DNA from: Escherichia coli
GTDB taxonomy: Bacteria > Pseudomonadota > Gammaproteobacteria > Enterobacterales > Enterobacteriaceae
Direction: 5' to 3' (one strand)
NCBI RefSeq assembly: GCF_017348835.2
Contig: NZ_CP071375.1
DNA length: 64,000 bases
The position numbers and the translations under genes are program-made. Positions 14,956-61,312 of the stretch are shown here, piece after piece. The first letter of the stretch is position 1; each line of letters opens with the position of its first letter. A model generated the notes under the pieces. It was not told where the DNA came from. It was given only the letters and a program-made list of their open reading frames with translations, and made no database searches.

Positions 14956-17198
<2,243 letters not shown>

Positions 17199-30673: not shown

Positions 30674-32215
<1,542 letters not shown>

Positions 32216-32283
32216 CCTTAAAGAAGCGTTCTTTGTAGTGCTCACACAGATTGTCTGATGAAAATGAGCAGTAAAACCTCTAC

Positions 32284-32360
<77 letters not shown>

Positions 32361-32402
32361 AATTTGCACGGCAAATTTGAAGAGGTTTTAACTACATGTT
32401 AT

Positions 32403-32478
32403 GGGGCTATAGCTCAGCTGGGAGAGCGCCTGCTTTGCACGCAGGAGGTCTGCGGTTCGATCCCGCATAGCTCCACCA
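32403..32478 (+). tRNA. alaT: tRNA-Ala (TGC anticodon)
   Basis: GGGGCTATAGCTCAGCTGGGAGAGCGCCTGCTTTGCACGCAGGAGGTCTGCGGTTCGATCCCGCATAGCTCCACCA. Confidence 0.97.
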
Positions 32479-32652
32479 TCTCTGTAGTGATTAAATAAAA
32501 AATACTTCAGAGTGTACCTGCAAAGGTTCACTGCGAAGTTTTGCTCTTTAAAAATCTGGATCAAGCTGAAAATTGAAACACTGAACAATGAAAGTTGTTC
32601 GTGAGTCTCTCAAATTTTCGCAACTCTGAAGTGAAACATCTTCGGGTTGTGA

Positions 32653-35555
<2,903 letters not shown>

Positions 35556-35648
35556 ACAACGCCGAAGGTGTTTTGGCGGATTGAGAGAAGATTTTCAGCC
35601 TGATACAGATTAAATCAGAACGCAGAAGCGGTCTGATAAAACAGAATT

Positions 35649-35768
35649 TGCCTGGCGGCCGTAGCGCGGTGGTCCCACCTGACCCCATGCCGAACTCAGA
35701 AGTGAAACGCCGTAGCGCCGATGGTAGTGTGGGGTCTCCCCATGCGAGAGTAGGGAACTGCCAGGCAT
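35649..35768 (+). rRNA. rrfA: 5S ribosomal RNA
   Basis: TGCCTGGCGGCCGTAGCGCGGTGGTCCCACCTGACCCCATGCCGAACTCAG...CTGCCAGGCAT, 120 nt. Confidence 0.97.
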
Positions 35769-44716: not shown

Positions 44717-44863
44717 GATTCGCCTGAACATGCCCTTTTTTCGTAAGTAAGCAACATAAGCTGTCACGTTTTGTGATGGCTATTAGAAATTCCTATGCAA
44801 CAACTGAAAAAAAATTACAAAAAGTGCTTTCTGAACTGAACAAAAAAGAGTAAAGTTAGTCGC

Positions 44864-44972
44864 GTAGGGTACAGAGGTAAGATGTTCTATCTTTCAGACC
44901 TTTTACTTCACGTAATCGGATTTGGCTGAATATTTTAGCCGCCCCAGTCAGTAATGACTGGGGCGTTTTTTA
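44864..44972 (+). ncRNA. spf: Spot 42 small regulatory RNA
   Basis: GTAGGGTACAGAGGTAAGATGTTCTATCTTTCAGACCTTTTACTTCACGTAATCGGATTTGGCTGAATATTTTAGCCGCCCCAGTCAGTAATGACTGGGGCGTTTTTTA matches the known Spot 42 sequence with its intrinsic terminator; located just downstream of polA as in K-12. Confidence 0.92.
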
Positions 44973-46000: not shown

Positions 46001-46245
46001 ATAGAGCGAGGACGCTAACAGGAACAATGACTCAGGATGAGGGTCAGGAGCGCCAGGAGGCGAAGACAGAGGATTGTCAGGAAGACAAACGTCCGGAGAC
46101 GTAATTAAACGGAAATGGAATCAACACGGATTGTTCCGGCTAATGGAAAAACAGGGTGTGTTGGCGGCCTGCAAGGATTGTAAGACCCGTTAAGGGTTAT
46201 GAGTCAGGAAAAAAGGCGACAGAGTAATCTGTCGCCTTTTTTCTT
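46001..46245 (+). ncRNA. csrC: CsrC small RNA (CsrA-sequestering)
   Basis: About 245 nt with many GGA motifs (AGGACG, CAGGAUGA, CAGGAGC, CAGGAGG, CAGAGGA, CAGGAAG, ACGGAAA...), ending in hairpin GGCGACAGAGTAATCTGTCGCC plus TTTTTTCTTTG; sits between engB and yihI as in K-12. Confidence 0.8.
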
Positions 46246-46311
46246 TGCTTGCTTTCTGTTAGATTCCGCCGCAAATCTATACTGAATAAAACGGCTAAAA
46301 GACGAACCATT

Positions 46312-47006: not shown

Positions 47007-48380
47007 ATGTCTGTACAGCAAATCGACTGGGATCTGGCCCTGATCCAGAAATATAACTATTCCGGGCCACGATACACCTCGTACCCGACCGCGCTGGAGT
47101 TTTCAGAAGACTTCGGCGAACAGGCGTTTTTACAAGCCGTGGCGCGCTATCCTGAGCGTCCATTATCTCTCTACGTACATATCCCGTTCTGCCATAAGCT
47201 TTGTTACTTCTGCGGTTGCAATAAGATTGTTACTCGCCAGCAGCACAAGGCCGATCAGTATCTGGACGCGCTGGAGCAAGAAATCGTCCATCGTGCACCG
47301 CTGTTCGCCGGGCGTCACGTCAGCCAGCTGCACTGGGGCGGCGGAACGCCGACGTATCTTAATAAAGCGCAAATCAGCCGCCTGATGAAGCTGCTGCGCG
47401 AAAACTTCCAGTTCAATGCCGATGCGGAGATTTCGATCGAAGTCGATCCGCGGGAAATCGAACTGGATGTACTCGATCATTTACGCGCCGAGGGCTTTAA
47501 TCGCCTGAGTATGGGCGTGCAGGACTTCAACAAAGAAGTGCAACGTCTGGTTAACCGCGAGCAGGATGAAGAGTTCATCTTTGCGCTGCTTAACCATGCG
47601 CGTGAGATTGGCTTTACCTCCACCAACATCGACCTGATTTACGGCCTGCCGAAACAGACGCCGGAAAGTTTCGCCTTTACCCTGAAACGCGTGGCGGAGC
47701 TGAACCCTGATCGTCTGAGCGTCTTTAACTATGCGCATCTGCCGACCATTTTTGCTGCTCAGCGCAAAATCAAAGATGCTGACCTGCCGAGTCCGCAGCA
47801 AAAACTCGATATCCTGCAGGAAACCATCGCCTTCCTGACGCAATCGGGCTATCAGTTTATCGGTATGGATCACTTTGCCCGTCCGGATGACGAGCTGGCG
47901 GTGGCCCAGCGTGAAGGCGTGCTGCATCGTAATTTCCAGGGCTACACCACTCAGGGCGATACCGATCTGCTGGGGATGGGCGTTTCCGCCATCAGCATGA
48001 TTGGCGACTGCTACGCGCAGAACCAGAAAGAGTTGAAGCAGTACTATCAGCAAGTGGATGAACAAGGCAATGCGCTGTGGCGTGGTATTGCGCTAACGCG
48101 TGATGACTGTATTCGCCGCGATGTGATTAAGTCGCTCATCTGCAACTTCCGTCTGGATTACGCCCCTATTGAGAAACAGTGGGATTTGCACTTCGCTGAT
48201 TACTTTGCGGAAGATCTCAAGCTGCTCGCCCCGTTAGCAAAAGATGGGCTGGTGGATGTGGATGAGAAGGGAATACAGGTGACGGCGAAAGGTCGCTTGC
48301 TGATCCGCAACATTTGCATGTGCTTTGATACCTATCTGCGCCAGAAAGCGCGGATGCAGCAGTTCTCTCGGGTGATTTAA
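47007..48380 (+). CDS. hemN: Oxygen-independent coproporphyrinogen III oxidase HemN (radical SAM)
   Basis: ORF track 47001..48380; ATG at 47007 gives MSVQQIDWDL, 457 aa; CxxxCxxC radical-SAM motif (CHKLCYFCGC). Confidence 0.95.
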   Translation: MSVQQIDWDLALIQKYNYSGPRYTSYPTALEFSEDFGEQAFLQAVARYPERPLSLYVHIPFCHKLCYFCGCNKIVTRQQHKADQYLDALEQEIVHRAPLFAGRHVSQLHWGGGTPTYLNKAQISRLMKLLRENFQFNADAEISIEVDPREIELDVLDHLRAEGFNRLSMGVQDFNKEVQRLVNREQDEEFIFALLNHAREIGFTSTNIDLIYGLPKQTPESFAFTLKRVAELNPDRLSVFNYAHLPTIFAAQRKIKDADLPSPQQKLDILQETIAFLTQSGYQFIGMDHFARPDDELAVAQREGVLHRNFQGYTTQGDTDLLGMGVSAISMIGDCYAQNQKELKQYYQQVDEQGNALWRGIALTRDDCIRRDVIKSLICNFRLDYAPIEKQWDLHFADYFAEDLKLLAPLAKDGLVDVDEKGIQVTAKGRLLIRNICMCFDTYLRQKARMQQFSRVI

Positions 48381-48445
48381 ATAGTGAATGGCGCTTCGTT
48401 TACAAAGTAGAAAACGAAAGCGCCATCAATGTGCTGAGAACAAGA

Positions 48446-48536
48446 TTGCCTGATGCGCTACGCTTATCAGGCCTACAAAACCTGTTGAAAATATTGCTTT
48501 TGTAGACCGGATAAGGCGTTCACGCCGCATCCGGCA
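48446..48536. repeat. REP/BIME elements
   Basis: GCCTGATGCGCTACGCTTATCAGGCCTAC and CCGGATAAGGCGTTCACGCCGCATCCGGCA units. Confidence 0.55.
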
Positions 48537-48569
48537 TGAACAAAGAGCACTTCATCAGCAATCTGAAAC

Positions 48570-48680
48570 TCAACTAAACAGCCCAATCATCGCGGCACAC
48601 AGCACGGCAGCAACGGCAGTTTGCGGTGTGTGGCTGTCAACTGCGCCACTCGATACCAGATTAATTATTGATTCCAGCAT
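48570..48680 (-). CDS. yshB: Small protein YshB (36 aa)
   Basis: Minus-strand ATG at 48680 preceded by GGGGAGAG RBS; translates MLESIINLVSSGAVDSHTPQTAVAAVLCAAMIGLFS-stop; below ORF-track threshold; position between hemN and glnG matches K-12 yshB. Confidence 0.55.
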   Translation of the reverse strand: MLESIINLVSSGAVDSHTPQTAVAAVLCAAMIGLFS

Positions 48681-48791
48681 AATGACTCTCCCCGTTTTCC
48701 GGGCAAGATCATACTGAACTTATCGGAACAGTAAAGCGCAAAATACCAGCAATTTGCGCTCAATAATCAATCTTTACACACAAGCCGTGAA

Positions 48792-50201
48792 TCACTCCAT
48801 CCCCAGCTCTTTTAACTTACGCGTCAGAGTGTTGCGGCCCCAGCCAAGTAGCCGCGCCGCTTCCTGTTTATGCCCCTGCGTATGTCGCAACGCGGTCGTC
48901 AGTAACGTCCGCTCCAGCTCTGGCTGCGCTTCGGAAAGCAGATTTTGATGACCGGAACGCAGCGCTCTGTCTGCCCACTGCGCTAAAAGTGTCGCCCAAC
49001 TGTCCGGTTGCATTTGCGAAGTACTCTCCGCAACCGTTGATTCAAACAGTTCGCCGGGCAAATCCTGAATCAACACTTCCTGCCCGGCGGCCATCACCGT
49101 TAGCCAGCGGCAGGTGTTTTCCAGCTGGCGCACGTTGCCTGGCCACGCCAGACGCGTCAGAGCAGCTTCGGTTTCCGGATGCAGCAACTTCGCTTCTACG
49201 CCCAGTTCGCGCGCGGCAACCTGTAAAAAATGGCGCGCCAGACGGGGAATATCTTCCCGACGTTCGCGCAGCGGCGGCAGATGAACGCGGATAACGTTCA
49301 GGCGGTGGAACAGATCCTCACGGAACTTACCTTCCTGCACCCGCTGTTCGAGATTCTGGTGAGTGGCAGCGATAATCCGCACATCCACTTTCACCGGCGC
49401 ATAGCCGCCAACGCGGTAAAACTGACCGTCTGCCAGCACGCGCAGCAAACGCGTCTGCACATCCAGCGGCATATCGCCAATTTCATCGAGAAATAATGTA
49501 CCGCCATCAGCCTGTTCAAAACGCCCCTGACGAATGGTATTCGCGCCGGTAAATGCGCCTTTCTCGTGACCAAACAGTTCTGATTCGATCAAATCTTTTG
49601 GGATAGCTGCCATATTCAGCGCGATAAACGGCGCTTTGGCTCGCGGACTGTGGCGATGCAGGGCATGAGCGACCAGTTCTTTACCGGTACCGGATTCGCC
49701 GTTAATCAGCACGCTAATAGAAGAACGCGAAAGCCGACCGATAATACGGAACACGTCCTGCATGGCTGGCGCTTCGCCGATGATATCGGTCGTTGGGCCG
49801 TTAAGCTGAACATTACGCGGCTGCTGCTGTTCCTGGTAATGACTGATGGCGCGCTCAACCAGCGCCACGGCTTCGTCGATATCAAACGGTTTGGGCAGAT
49901 AATCGAACGCCCCTTGTTGATAGGCACTGACGGCAGCATCCAGATCGGAATGTGCGGTCATAATGATGACCGGAAGCATCGGATGGCGCTGTTTAATCTG
50001 CTTGAGCAGCGCCAGCCCGTCCATTCCCGGCATACGGATATCTGAAAGCAGCACATCCGGCGTTTTGCTCGCCAGCGCCTCCAGTACCTCCGCGCCGTTC
50101 TCAAATGTCGTACAGGTTAAACCCGCTCCAGCGAGCGCACGTTCAAGCACCCAACGGATGGAACTATCGTCATCGACTACCCAGACTATCCCTCGTTGCA
50201 T
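48792..50201 (-). CDS. glnG: Nitrogen regulation response regulator NtrC (sigma-54 activator)
   Basis: ORF track 48792..50261; Met21 ([12 protein letters not shown]) gives 469 aa; receiver domain, AAA+ GESGTGKE, C-terminal HTH. Confidence 0.95.
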
Positions 50202-52998: not shown

Positions 52999-53067
52999 TG
53001 CACCATGATGTGAATGTTGCACCAATATAGTGCTTCAATGGAAACATTAAGCACCATATTGGTGCAA
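52999..53067. promoter_or_regulatory. NtrC enhancer sites upstream of glnAp2
   Basis: TGCACCATGATGTGAATGTTGCACCAA and GCACCATATTGGTGCAA dyads (TGCACC-N5-GGTGCA-like). Confidence 0.7.
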
Positions 53068-53217
53068 TGACCTTTGGATAACCCTTTTTATGCTCCGTGA
53101 AAGCGATCACAAAGGGACTCTGCAATACTTGTTTGCGGAGGATGTTTGTGATCCTGTTTTGTAGTGCGATTAATCCGTGTACAATAACGCGCTATTTCTA
53201 ATGCCTGAGGCAAAGTT

Positions 53218-55041
53218 GTGATCGAAAAATTGCGTAATATCGCCATCATCGCGCACGTAGACCATGGTAAAACCACCCTGGTAGACAAGCTGCTCCAACA
53301 ATCCGGTACGTTCGACTCTCGTGCCGAAACCCAAGAGCGCGTGATGGACTCCAACGATTTGGAGAAAGAGCGTGGGATTACCATCCTCGCGAAAAACACC
53401 GCTATCAAATGGAATGATTACCGTATCAACATCGTTGATACCCCGGGGCACGCCGACTTCGGTGGTGAAGTTGAACGTGTAATGTCCATGGTAGACTCAG
53501 TGCTGCTGGTGGTTGACGCATTTGACGGCCCGATGCCGCAAACGCGCTTCGTAACCAAAAAAGCGTTTGCTTACGGCCTGAAGCCGATTGTTGTTATCAA
53601 CAAAGTTGACCGCCCTGGCGCGCGTCCTGATTGGGTTGTGGATCAGGTATTCGATCTGTTCGTTAACCTCGACGCGACCGACGAGCAGCTGGACTTCCCG
53701 ATCGTTTACGCTTCTGCGCTTAACGGTATCGCGGGTCTGGACCACGAAGATATGGCGGAAGACATGACCCCGCTGTATCAGGCGATTGTTGATCACGTTC
53801 CTGCGCCGGACGTTGACCTTGACGGTCCGTTCCAGATGCAGATTTCTCAGCTCGATTACAACAGCTATGTTGGCGTTATCGGCATTGGCCGCATCAAGCG
53901 CGGTAAAGTGAAGCCGAACCAGCAGGTCACTATCATCGATAGCGAAGGCAAAACCCGCAACGCGAAAGTCGGTAAAGTGCTGGGCCACCTCGGTCTGGAA
54001 CGTATCGAAACCGATCTGGCGGAAGCTGGCGATATCGTGGCGATCACGGGCCTGGGCGAACTGAACATTTCTGACACCGTTTGCGACACGCAAAACGTTG
54101 AAGCGCTGCCGGCACTCTCCGTTGATGAGCCGACCGTTTCTATGTTCTTCTGCGTTAACACCTCGCCGTTCTGCGGTAAAGAAGGTAAGTTCGTAACGTC
54201 TCGTCAGATCCTGGATCGTCTGAACAAAGAACTGGTACACAACGTTGCGCTGCGCGTAGAAGAAACCGAAGACGCCGATGCGTTCCGCGTTTCTGGTCGT
54301 GGCGAACTGCACCTGTCTGTTCTGATCGAAAACATGCGTCGTGAAGGTTTCGAACTGGCGGTATCCCGTCCGAAAGTTATCTTCCGTGAAATCGACGGTC
54401 GTAAACAAGAGCCGTATGAAAACGTGACTCTGGACGTTGAAGAACAGCATCAGGGTTCTGTAATGCAGGCGCTGGGCGAACGTAAAGGCGACCTGAAAAA
54501 CATGAATCCAGACGGTAAAGGCCGCGTACGTCTCGACTACGTGATCCCAAGTCGTGGTCTGATTGGCTTCCGTTCTGAGTTCATGACCATGACTTCCGGT
54601 ACTGGTCTGCTGTACTCCACCTTCAGCCACTACGACGACGTACGTCCGGGCGAAGTGGGTCAGCGTCAGAACGGTGTACTGATCTCTAACGGTCAGGGTA
54701 AAGCGGTCGCGTTCGCGCTGTTCGGTCTGCAGGATCGCGGTAAGCTGTTCCTCGGTCACGGTGCAGAAGTTTACGAAGGTCAAATTATCGGTATTCACAG
54801 CCGCTCTAACGACCTGACTGTAAACTGCCTGACCGGTAAGAAACTGACCAACATGCGTGCTTCCGGTACTGACGAAGCCGTTGTTCTGGTTCCGCCTATC
54901 CGCATGACTCTGGAACAAGCTCTGGAGTTCATCGATGATGACGAACTGGTAGAAGTGACTCCGACCTCTATTCGTATTCGTAAACGTCACCTGACGGAAA
55001 ACGATCGTCGCCGCGCCAACCGCGCACCGAAAGACGATTAA
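53218..55041 (+). CDS. typA: Ribosome-associated translational GTPase BipA/TypA
   Basis: 607-aa ORF, GTG start, EF-G-like GTPase ([14 protein letters not shown]). Confidence 0.95.
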
Positions 55042-55060
55042 TTTCGTTTTTTAGTCATAA

Positions 55061-55090
55061 AAAACCTGCCAGCGATGGCAGGTTTTTTTT
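55061..55090 (+). terminator. Rho-independent terminator after typA
   Basis: AAACCTGCCAGCGATGGCAGGTTT hairpin followed by TTTTTTTTTG. Confidence 0.75.
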
Positions 55091-55257
55091 TGCCTGTCGT
55101 GAGCGCACACCAATGCGAGTATCTCCCTTATAAGTCTGTGATTACGTCAATAGAGAGCTTTGTCACAATTATCTGCAAAGTCATACACCGTTAATTGCTT
55201 TCTTTTTTGGCGTAAGCGTAAGATGCTTCATCTGGTTTAAACCAAAAGGATTAAACA

Positions 55258-60098: not shown

Positions 60099-60986
60099 TC
60101 AGGCTGCCAGATCATTATTTCCGATGGAAGCATAATAAGCTTTTTCTGCTTCTGCCGGAGGAATATGGCCCAGCCTTTCCAGCAATCGTCGATTGTTATA
60201 CCAGTCCACCCACGTTAGTGTGGCCAGTTCCACTTCTGTCCGGTTTTTCCAGCTCTTACGGTGTATTACCTCCGCTTTGTAAAGACCATTGATGCTCTCA
60301 GCCATCGCGTTGTCATACGAGTCGCCAGTACTCCCTGTTGATGCCAGTAATCCGGCTTCCTTAAGCCGCTGCGTGTAGGCCAGCGATACATACTGAGAAC
60401 CTTTATCACTGTGATGGATTGTGCCGGACGGCCGACGGGCCCACAACGCCTGCTCCAGTGCATCCAGCACGAATGTTGTTTCCATGGATGATGAGACCTG
60501 CCATCCCACGATGTATCCGGCGAACACATCAATGATGAACGCCACATAAACGAAGCCCTGCCATGTGCTTACCCAGGTAAAATCAGCCACCCACAACTGG
60601 TCTGGACGTTCTGCCACGAACTGACGGTTTACGCGGTCGCATGCGGCAACGGCTTTCCGGCTGACGGTAGTGCGGACCTTTTTACCCCGGAGAACACCGG
60701 CAAGTCCCATAACTGCCATGAGACGTGCCACAGTGCATCTGGCCACTCTGATACCTTCCCGTAACAACTGACGCCAGACTTTACGCACACCGTATACCTG
60801 GTGATTTTCATCGTATACGCGCTGTATCTCTTTCTTCAGCCAGTCATCGTGCTGCGCACGGGCACTGCGTTTATCCGGATGATGTCGCTGTTGCTGACAA
60901 TGGTAATACGTTGACGGGGCAATATGCAGTTCGCTGCATACCGGTCCGCCCCCGTACTGCTCACGCAGCTTATCCAGCAGTGGCAT
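60099..60986 (-). CDS. IS629 transposase OrfB (DDE catalytic part)
   Basis: 295-aa ORF in the -1 frame relative to OrfA, overlapping its stop (AAAAAATAATG); DDE integrase-like (…WVADFTW…HSDKGSQY…). Confidence 0.9.
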   Translation of the reverse strand: MPLLDKLREQYGGGPVCSELHIAPSTYYHCQQQRHHPDKRSARAQHDDWLKKEIQRVYDENHQVYGVRKVWRQLLREGIRVARCTVARLMAVMGLAGVLRGKKVRTTVSRKAVAACDRVNRQFVAERPDQLWVADFTWVSTWQGFVYVAFIIDVFAGYIVGWQVSSSMETTFVLDALEQALWARRPSGTIHHSDKGSQYVSLAYTQRLKEAGLLASTGSTGDSYDNAMAESINGLYKAEVIHRKSWKNRTEVELATLTWVDWYNNRRLLERLGHIPPAEAEKAYYASIGNNDLAA

Positions 60987-61312
60987 TATTTTTTCCAGAG
61001 GCGGTCGAACTCCGCCTTCGCAAAATAAGCGGAAGCCTGGCGAAGGATATCGTTACTGCGGCGCAGTTCACGATTTTCACGTTCCAGCTCTTTCAGACGC
61101 TGACGTTCAGCGGTGGTGAGTCCACCATCACCACTCCCGGTATCCCGCTCATGCTGGCGAACCCAGACACGCAGAGTCTCCGGCGTACAGCCAATCTTTG
61201 GGGCAATGGAACAAATTGCCGCCCACTGTGAGTCATATTCATCCTGACTTTCCAGAACCATACGAATCGCCCGCTGACGGACTTCGGGGGAAAAACGAGT
61301 ATTTTTAGTCAT
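60986..61312 (-). CDS. IS629 transposase OrfA (HTH DNA-binding part)
   Basis: 108-aa [26 protein letters not shown]... with leucine-zipper-like C-terminus, typical IS3 OrfA. Confidence 0.9.

What the first reader, a model, noticed from the sequence alone, without database searches (positions are those of the whole stretch)
48570..48680. Unlisted 36-codon gene (yshB-like) with a strong RBS between hemN and glnG
The ORF track omits it because of the length cutoff, but the minus strand has GGGGAGAG, a spacer, then ATG opening a 36-codon frame (MLESIINLVSSGAVDSHTPQTAVAAVLCAAMIGLFS) with a hydrophobic C-terminal half, matching the known small protein at this K-12 position.
Basis: partly seen in the sequence, partly recalled or inferred. 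Interest (0 to 1): 0.2.

Follow-up and report, generated by a model that had tools for sequence, protein, structure and literature searches.

The report
Known small-protein gene yshB

Summary
The ORF at window 48570..48680 (minus strand) exists exactly as described. It translates to MLESIINLVSSGAVDSHTPQTAVAAVLCAAMIGLFS, which is 100% identical to K-12 YshB (WP_000893994.1 / YSHB_ECOLI). RefSeq annotates it as "YshB family small membrane protein" between glnG and hemN, and it is single-copy in 5,425 of 5,426 complete E. coli genomes. It scores 72.1 bits against the NCBIfam equivalog NF033841 (cutoff 34).

The frame stays intact in Citrobacter, Enterobacter-type, Salmonella and Erwiniaceae orthologs, always downstream of glnA-glnL-glnG. 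E. coli versus Citrobacter shows 21 substitutions, 18 at third codon positions (P = 1.1e-6), with dN/dS of about 0.06. No other frame is stop-free in all six lineages.

A sigma70-like promoter (TTTACT, 16 nt, TATGAT) and a G-rich Shine-Dalgarno site are conserved across lineages. Published work reports the protein by top-down mass spectrometry, its cleavage by the RseP protease, and a virulence role for the Salmonella homolog. Its molecular function in E. coli remains unknown.

Verdict: observation confirmed, interpretation supported, already known, low interest.

The parts
48570..48680 (-). yshB coding sequence: 36 codons plus a TGA stop at 48572..48570
   Evidence: Searches give the sequence and translation. 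It is identical to K-12 YshB. NF033841 scores 72.1 bits. dN/dS is 0.06-0.16 against other genera.
48686..48693 (-). Shine-Dalgarno sequence GGGGAGAG, with the GGAG core 7 nt upstream of the ATG
   Evidence: Read directly from the sequence. Duplex with the 16S 3' end is -8.1 kcal/mol. A G-rich SD is kept in all orthologs at -8.1 to -11.5 kcal/mol. The leader is unstructured.
48708..48735 (-). sigma70-like promoter for yshB: -35 TTTACT (48735..48730), 16-nt spacer, -10 TATGAT (48713..48708). The inferred transcription start is near 48701.
   Evidence: It is the only promoter-like hit in 48300-48900, which is not significant alone (shuffles average 0.7). However, CGCTTTAC and GTATNAT are the only invariant blocks of the spacer across Enterobacteriaceae and Erwiniaceae, at fixed spacing. 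PMC9731577 states that yshB has its own promoter. The start-site position is inferred.
48735..48760 (-). Perfect 8-bp hairpin AGCGCAAA / TTTGCGCT with a 10-nt loop, 32 nt after the glnG stop. It is the likely end of the glnALG transcript, and its 3' arm abuts the yshB -35.
   Evidence: I4. It is conserved in Citrobacter and L089 but not clearly in Erwiniaceae. It did not pass the simple terminator scan because it lacks a T-run, so the terminator role is inferred.
48463..48534 (.). REP/BIME-type palindromic repeats in the yshB 3' region, between the convergent yshB and hemN
   Evidence: Inverted repeats I1 and I2. These sequences recur a median of 34 times per E. coli genome. There is a sub-threshold Rfam naRNA4 (REP-derived) hit at 32 bits. 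Copy number varies by strain, and K-12 has an extra element right after the stop. The 3' region folds at -82.4 kcal/mol, z = -7.1.
48388..48426 (.). Long hairpin (ATGGCGCTT...AAGCGCCAT, extendable) just beyond the hemN stop. It probably ends both convergent transcripts.
   Evidence: I3; the terminal stem in the minimum-free-energy fold. No T-run follows on either strand, so the terminator function is inferred.
48792..50201 (-). glnG (ntrC), the upstream neighbour; included as context only
47007..48380 (+). hemN, the convergent downstream neighbour; included as context only
   Evidence: The RefSeq CDS is 1374 nt.

Best explanation
This is yshB, a core gene of E. coli and of Enterobacteriaceae and Erwiniaceae generally. 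It is a self-contained unit in the spacer between glnG and the convergent hemN. It has its own sigma70-type promoter, a roughly 20-nt unstructured leader with a good Shine-Dalgarno site, a 36-codon ORF, and a highly structured REP-containing 3' end.

The product has no Lys or Arg. It is predicted to form an amphipathic N-terminal helix (residues 2-14), a conserved hinge (S/T-H-T-P-Q-T-A), and a short Ala-rich hydrophobic C-terminal helix (residues 19-34) that carries a conserved Cys28. Published experiments show that the protein is made and that it is cleaved by the intramembrane protease RseP.

The mechanism is inferred, not shown. I think it most likely acts like other bacterial small membrane proteins, by sitting in or on the inner membrane and binding a larger membrane protein to modulate it, with RseP limiting its abundance. 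Its partner and its cellular role in E. coli are unknown. In Salmonella the 92%-identical homolog is reported to promote intracellular replication.

Confidence is 0.97 that this is a genuine, expressed yshB. Confidence in the 'modulator of a larger membrane protein' mechanism is only about 0.4.
For: Identity: 100% to K-12 YshB, same RefSeq accession, and named YSHB_ECOLI. It is annotated as yshB, single copy, in 5,425 of 5,426 complete E. coli genomes. NF033841 equivalog scores 72.1 bits against a cutoff of 34.

Coding selection: E. coli versus Citrobacter differences by codon position are 3/0/18, P = 1.1e-6, dN/dS 0.06. The value is 0.15-0.16 against the L089 metagenomic ortholog (whose peptide the sources name as Enterobacter YshB) and against Erwinia tracheiphila. 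Two Erwiniaceae alleles differ by 3 synonymous and 0 nonsynonymous changes. This is the only frame stop-free in all lineages.

Synteny: glnA-glnL-glnG-yshB with convergent hemN in every locus recovered.

Expression signals: the -35 and -10 blocks and the SD are conserved while the rest of the spacer diverges, and the leader is accessible.

Literature: own promoter, not induced by nitrogen limitation (PMC9731577). Detected intact by top-down mass spectrometry (PMC12529367). More than 11,000 copies per stationary-phase cell was estimated, attributed to the Li et al. 2014 ribosome-profiling study (PMC7549839). Class I RseP substrate, positive in all four assays including purified enzyme (PMC10470546). 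The Salmonella homolog promotes intracellular replication (Bomjan 2019, as cited), and the Salmonella protein differs at 3 of 36 residues.

Structure: AlphaFold gives H2-14 and H19-34, mean pLDDT 72. The hydrophobic core is residues 21-35, with no K or R in any ortholog.
Against: Nothing argues against the identification. Several points argue against the inferred mechanism.

The hydrophobic stretch is only about 15 residues. A simple summed Hessa scale is favourable only for a 15-residue window (-1.1 kcal/mol) and unfavourable at 19-21 residues. There is no positive-inside signal. The RseP paper's table lists only a TOPCONS prediction for it, with N-out/C-in orientation, which is opposite to typical RseP substrates. 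All RseP assays used N-terminally tagged fusions, which can force topology, as the authors themselves caution. [quoted passage not shown] No interaction partner is known, and no solved structure contains it. The AlphaFold model rests on six sequences and has moderate confidence.
Confidence: 0.97

Rival explanations
1. YshB is a real protein but not a classical membrane-spanning one. It would be a peripheral, interfacial or re-entrant helix-hinge-helix peptide, or partly soluble, and its RseP cleavage would be an artefact of the tagged fusions.
For: The hydrophobic stretch is only about 15 residues, with no K or R in any ortholog and an amphipathic N-terminal helix. AlphaFold gives two helices with a break at the conserved hinge. 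The RseP paper's table lists only a TOPCONS prediction, with the 'wrong' orientation for RseP. [quoted passage not shown] The authors caution that tags may alter topology.
Against: It was cleaved by RseP in all four assays, including chromosomal-level RseP and purified enzyme. NCBI curators name the family a small membrane protein. From memory, and not checkable here, Hemm et al. 2008 reported tagged YshB in the membrane fraction.
Confidence: 0.15
2. The transcript acts mainly as a small regulatory RNA, or as a dual-function RNA, and the ORF is secondary.
For: The transcript is short with its own promoter, a conserved 5' region and a highly structured 3' end. From memory, the Salmonella gene was encountered during a screen of small RNAs (Bomjan 2019; not held).
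Against: Synonymous sites inside the ORF are near saturation between genera (pS 0.48-0.86), while amino acids are conserved. This is the opposite of what an RNA-level constraint would give. The region after the stop codon aligns only poorly between E. coli and Citrobacter (24% identical columns in a global alignment). No Rfam family matches apart from a sub-threshold REP-derived hit. The protein is detected directly.
Confidence: 0.03
3. It is a chance ORF in a non-coding spacer, annotated only by propagation.
For: Short ORFs are abundant: 57 of 20 aa or more overlap this 4-kb stretch. The single promoter hit is not significant alone.
Against: Third-position bias with P = 1.1e-6, dN/dS 0.06-0.16, the frame intact in six lineages while all other frames break, a conserved SD and promoter, and the intact protein observed by top-down mass spectrometry.
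Confidence: 0.01

Closest known systems
YshB of E. coli K-12 (YSHB_ECOLI, WP_000893994.1; NCBIfam NF033841 'YshB family small membrane protein')
   Same: The amino-acid sequence is identical over 36 of 36 residues. The position (glnG then yshB, convergent with hemN), the SD and the promoter are the same.
   Different: There are two synonymous nucleotide differences in the CDS. K-12 also carries an extra REP-like element immediately after the stop codon, about 39 nt more in net length. The window is 100% identical over 651 nt to strain PE164.
YshB of Salmonella enterica (Bomjan et al. 2019, J Bacteriol 201:e00314-19)
   Same: 33 of 36 residues are identical, the length is the same, and so is the locus downstream of glnG/ntrC. 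It is reported to have its own promoter and not to be induced by nitrogen limitation.
   Different: It differs by V23L, M31L and I32V. The reported role in intracellular replication and virulence concerns a pathogen lifestyle and has not been shown for E. coli. I could not read that paper.
Small membrane-protein regulators of E. coli such as MgrB (PhoQ inhibitor), MgtS and Blr
   Same: This is a functional analogy only: a peptide under 50 aa with one hydrophobic helix. Blr is a class I RseP substrate like YshB, and MgrB is a class II candidate. They provide the model for how YshB may act.
   Different: There is no sequence relationship. Those proteins have longer hydrophobic helices of 19-23 residues and flanking charged residues. 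YshB has about 15 hydrophobic residues and no K or R, and no partner is known.

Membership tests
YshB family small membrane protein (NCBIfam NF033841, equivalog) | Score at or above the curated cutoff of the family HMM over its full length | tested here: met
   72.1 bits against a cutoff of 34, E = 2.4e-20, residues 1-36 on profile positions 1-40 of 40
YshB family small membrane protein (NCBIfam NF033841, equivalog) | Sequence identity to the type member, E. coli K-12 YshB | tested here: met
   36 of 36 residues identical, same RefSeq protein accession, named YSHB_ECOLI
YshB family small membrane protein (NCBIfam NF033841, equivalog) | Conserved genomic position: immediately downstream of glnALG, same strand, convergent with hemN | tested here: met
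   In the window: glnG stop at 48792, yshB at 48680..48570, hemN end at 48380. The same order holds in Citrobacter, the L089 metagenomic ortholog and Erwiniaceae loci.
YshB family small membrane protein (NCBIfam NF033841, equivalog) | Conserved core motif H-T-P-Q-T-A ... A..C-A ... F and a length of 36-37 aa | tested here: met
   Invariant columns are M1, E3, H17, T18, P19, Q20, T21, A22, A25, C28, A29 and F35 in six diverse orthologs. One E. marmotae variant has HAPQTA.
YshB family small membrane protein (NCBIfam NF033841, equivalog) | Frame under purifying selection in relatives (a real protein-coding gene) | tested here: met
   dN/dS 0.06-0.16 against other genera, third-position bias P = 1.1e-6, and the only frame open in all lineages
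YshB family small membrane protein (NCBIfam NF033841, equivalog) | Localisation in the inner membrane | not testable with these tools
   Only sequence-based indications are available: a 15-residue hydrophobic helix and a two-helix model. The literature evidence is indirect, namely RseP cleavage of tagged fusions.
Pfam PF28018 (YshB) | Match to the Pfam model | tested here: inconclusive
   The local Pfam-A copy gives no hit for this protein. It also gives no hit for P0014 and P0015, whose precomputed annotation is PF28018:YshB. The model therefore appears to be absent from the local library, so the blank is uninformative.
RseP (S2P) substrates among small membrane proteins | RseP-dependent cleavage within the transmembrane segment | not testable with these tools
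   Reported for E. coli YshB, which has the same sequence as here, in four assays (PMC10470546). It was not tested on the native untagged protein.

The most novel reading that the evidence does not exclude
YshB may not be a conventional single-pass membrane protein. It could instead be a charge-poor (no Lys or Arg) helix-hinge-helix peptide with an unusually short, Ala-rich hydrophobic helix and an invariant HTPQTA hinge and Cys28. Such a peptide might insert as a re-entrant or interfacial element and regulate a specific, still-unknown membrane complex. Its strict linkage to glnALG across Enterobacteriaceae and Erwiniaceae might hint at that partner, even though its transcription is independent of nitrogen status.
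Probability: 0.12. Interest if true: 0.35.

Novelty: already known. Interest (0 to 1): 0.06.

Why it matters
It matters little as a discovery. The gene has been annotated in E. coli K-12 since the 2008 small-protein surveys and is named in essentially every RefSeq E. coli genome. The result does show that a sequence-only reader can recover a sub-cutoff small gene from an RBS plus ORF pattern. It also gives an independent comparative confirmation (dN/dS, promoter and SD footprints, synteny) that the annotation is sound. The open question is YshB's molecular function and partner, which this window cannot answer.

Tried and rejected

2. I anchored on GlnG in genome contigs instead. The set still served as an outgroup panel. 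No YshB-like sequence follows glnG in Photorhabdus (a transposase sits there), Vibrio, Shewanella, Pseudomonas or beyond.

3. The Pfam scan returned nothing. I attribute this to the local library lacking PF28018, not to the protein.

4. The PDB profile search, run to see whether YshB is a hidden subunit of a solved complex, gave only chance hits with E above 2.

5. Rfam on the locus gave only a sub-threshold REP-derived naRNA4 hit. I rejected the sRNA reading.

6. A CCCG-N5-CGGG mini-hairpin lies at the predicted mRNA 5' end. Its fold is no better than shuffled sequence (z = +0.4) and it is absent in E. tracheiphila, so I do not claim it.

7. The simple terminator scan found no canonical intrinsic terminator. 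The hairpins are reported as inferred transcript ends only.

8. The primary papers were not held: Hemm 2008, Hemm 2010, Fontaine 2011, Bomjan 2019, Li 2014, Weaver 2019, and the EcoSal and J Bacteriol reviews. Their content is cited only through papers that quote them, or is marked as memory.

Full report
OBSERVATION. The minus strand of window 48570..48680 carries an ATG-initiated 36-codon ORF ending in TGA. GGGGAGAG lies at 48693..48686, followed by TCATT and the ATG. The GGAG core is 7 nt from the start codon, and the computed pairing with the 16S rRNA 3' end is -8.1 kcal/mol. The 43-nt leader and start region has no significant structure (z = +0.4), so the start site should be accessible. 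The C-terminal half is hydrophobic, with the best Kyte-Doolittle window at residues 21-35 (mean 2.37). A short ORF is not remarkable in itself, since 57 ORFs of 20 aa or more overlap the surrounding 4 kb. The case therefore rests on the comparative evidence below.

IDENTITY. A megablast of the 651-nt neighbourhood against 5,426 complete E. coli genomes found it in 5,399 at 80% coverage or better. The annotation was always glnG | yshB 'YshB family small membrane protein' | hemN. The window is 100% identical to strain PE164. The ORF alone is present once in each of 5,425 of 5,426 genomes, at 90% identity or better. The RefSeq protein at this position is WP_000893994.1 in both PE164 and a K-12 strain, and the K-12 translation is identical to the window's. 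In the large protein collection the exact sequence is named 'Uncharacterized protein YshB ... RepID=YSHB_ECOLI'. It scores 72.1 bits against the NCBIfam equivalog NF033841 small_YshB, whose cutoff is 34. The local Pfam copy gave no hit. It also gave none for orthologs whose precomputed annotation is PF28018:YshB, so that blank reflects the library version.

IS THE FRAME CONSERVED IN RELATIVES? An exhaustive HMMER search of 1.84 billion cluster representatives found only 15 proteins at E of 1e-3 or better. Several are visibly frameshifted or mis-started calls of the same gene. The family is therefore small and narrow.

Named members occur in Shigella, Salmonella, E. marmotae, Citrobacter, Leclercia and Enterobacter. 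The most divergent members occur in Erwiniaceae, including Erwinia tracheiphila. In every locus recovered, the small ORF follows glnA-glnL-glnG on the same strand and faces a convergent hemN. The E. tracheiphila lineage has an SBP_bac_5 gene inserted before hemN. GlnG in these loci is 92-96% identical to E. coli's.

No YshB-like sequence follows glnG in Photorhabdus (a transposase sits there), Vibrio, Shewanella, Pseudomonas or more distant Proteobacteria.

At the codon level, E. coli versus Citrobacter shows 21 differences distributed 3/0/18 over codon positions (binomial P = 1.1e-6) and dN/dS = 0.06. E. coli versus the L089 metagenomic ortholog, whose peptide the sources name as Enterobacter YshB, gives 0.15. 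E. coli versus E. tracheiphila gives 0.16. Two Erwiniaceae alleles differ by 3 synonymous and 0 nonsynonymous changes. The yshB frame is the only one of six without stops in all six lineages. In a global alignment of the 100 nt after the stop codon, only 24% of columns are identical between E. coli and Citrobacter. The refutation conditions are not met.

EXPRESSION SIGNALS. The 111-nt glnG-yshB spacer contains three elements, listed 5' to 3' on the minus strand.
- A perfect 8-bp hairpin at 48760-48735, probably the end of the glnALG transcript. This is inferred, since no T-run follows it.
- A sigma70-like promoter: TTTACT at 48735..48730, a 16-nt spacer, and TATGAT at 48713..48708.
- The Shine-Dalgarno sequence.

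One promoter-like hit is not significant alone (shuffles average 0.7). In the alignment of eight spacers, however, CGCTTTAC and GTATNAT are the only invariant blocks besides the G-run of the SD, and their spacing is constant while the flanks diverge freely. [quoted passage not shown]

Downstream lie a REP/BIME pair at 48463-48534 and a long hairpin at 48388-48426, next to the hemN stop. The 192-nt 3' region folds at -82.4 kcal/mol, z = -7.1. K-12 carries an additional REP-like element right after the stop codon.

THE PROTEIN. All orthologs lack Lys and Arg. Twelve columns are invariant in six diverse sequences: M1, E3, H17-T-P-Q-T-A22, A25, C28, A29 and F35. AlphaFold on this shallow alignment gives helix 2-14, a break at 15-18 and helix 19-34, with mean pLDDT 72.

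The N-terminal segment is amphipathic. The hydrophobic core is only about 15 residues, and a simple summed biological hydrophobicity scale is favourable only for a 15-residue window. That is short for a membrane span. The RseP paper's table lists only a TOPCONS prediction for it, with N-out/C-in orientation. No solved structure contains it.

WHAT IS KNOWN EXPERIMENTALLY (from papers read here).
- Intact YshB was detected by top-down proteomics (PMC12529367).
- More than 11,000 copies per stationary-phase cell was estimated, attributed to the Li et al. 2014 ribosome-profiling study (PMC7549839).
- A C-terminally His-tagged version was not detectable.
- YshB is a class I RseP substrate, positive in all four assays. 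All used N-terminally tagged constructs, and there is additional RseP-independent periplasmic cleavage (PMC10470546).
- The Salmonella homolog, 33 of 36 residues identical, is cited as promoting intracellular replication and virulence (Bomjan 2019). I could not read that paper itself.
- yshB mRNA was down-regulated in a reporter E. coli in DSS-colitis mice (PMC12592466).

MECHANISM. Three things are shown: it is a real, selected, expressed small-protein gene with its own conserved promoter and SD. Two things are reported by others: the protein is present, and RseP cleaves it. The rest is inferred. I think it works like other small membrane proteins, as a membrane-embedded or membrane-associated helix that binds and modulates a larger membrane protein, with RseP and another protease limiting its level. 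I put this at about 0.4.

The main rival is that it is peripheral or re-entrant rather than spanning (0.15). An sRNA or dual-function reading is unlikely (0.03), because synonymous sites are near saturation while residues are conserved. A chance ORF is excluded.

VERDICT. Interest is low.

Noticed in passing
window 48463-48569 (compare L002 1882-2110): REP/BIME content between yshB and hemN varies by strain. K-12 has an extra REP-like element directly after the yshB stop codon (about 39 nt more in net length) that this window and strain PE164 lack. The REP sequence recurs a median of 34 times per E. coli genome.
   Followed up: partly
window 48708-48742 and orthologous spacers in L003, L083-L086, L089: CGCTTTAC (overlapping the -35) and GTATNAT (the -10) are invariant across Enterobacteriaceae and Erwiniaceae while the rest of the glnG-yshB spacer diverges. 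The 3' arm of the glnG-distal hairpin abuts the yshB -35, so the end of the glnALG transcript and the yshB promoter share sequence.
   Followed up: partly
window 48691-48703 (-): A CCCG-GAAAA-CGGG mini-hairpin sits at the predicted 5' end of the yshB mRNA and overlaps the first G of the SD. The stem is kept in Citrobacter and L089 and plausibly in L083 and L084, but not in E. tracheiphila. It is not significant by folding (z = +0.4).
   Followed up: partly
YshB orthologs (alignment A2): No ortholog contains any Lys or Arg, and the hydrophobic helix is only about 15 residues. Both features are unusual for a protein annotated as a membrane protein. A single invariant Cys (C28) lies in the middle of that helix.
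   Followed up: partly
L004 4036-5445 (Photorhabdus caribbeanensis): In Photorhabdus, a 469-aa transposase-like ORF lies directly after glnG on the opposite strand, where Enterobacteriaceae have yshB. No YshB-like ORF is present there.
   Followed up: no
L085-L088 3795-5423 (Erwinia tracheiphila lineage): A 542-aa SBP_bac_5 solute-binding protein gene is inserted between yshB and hemN in this lineage only.
   Followed up: no
E. coli genome collection: Two of the 5,425 yshB matches lie on records labelled as plasmids, and one complete genome of 5,426 has no match.
   Followed up: no
window 15310-15561, 30674-35766, 44854-44972, 46001-46254, 53029-53136, 55026-55094, 60915-61031: Rfam gathering-threshold hits elsewhere in the window are the Erse sRNA, a complete rrn operon with two tRNAs, StyR-44, Spot 42, CsrC, ES222, STnc370 and an ALIL pseudoknot (minus strand). 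ALIL is an IS3-family frameshift element, which suggests an insertion sequence near 61 kb.
   Followed up: no
protein collection: Many 'representatives' of the YshB family are 26-91-aa variants with frameshifted tails or upstream extensions (for example P0002, P0005-P0008, and the 39-46-aa Enterobacter calls). This shows how inconsistently gene callers treat this small gene.
   Followed up: no
tool library: The local Pfam-A copy lacks PF28018 (YshB), although the precomputed annotations cite it. A blank Pfam result for this family is therefore uninformative.
   Followed up: yes
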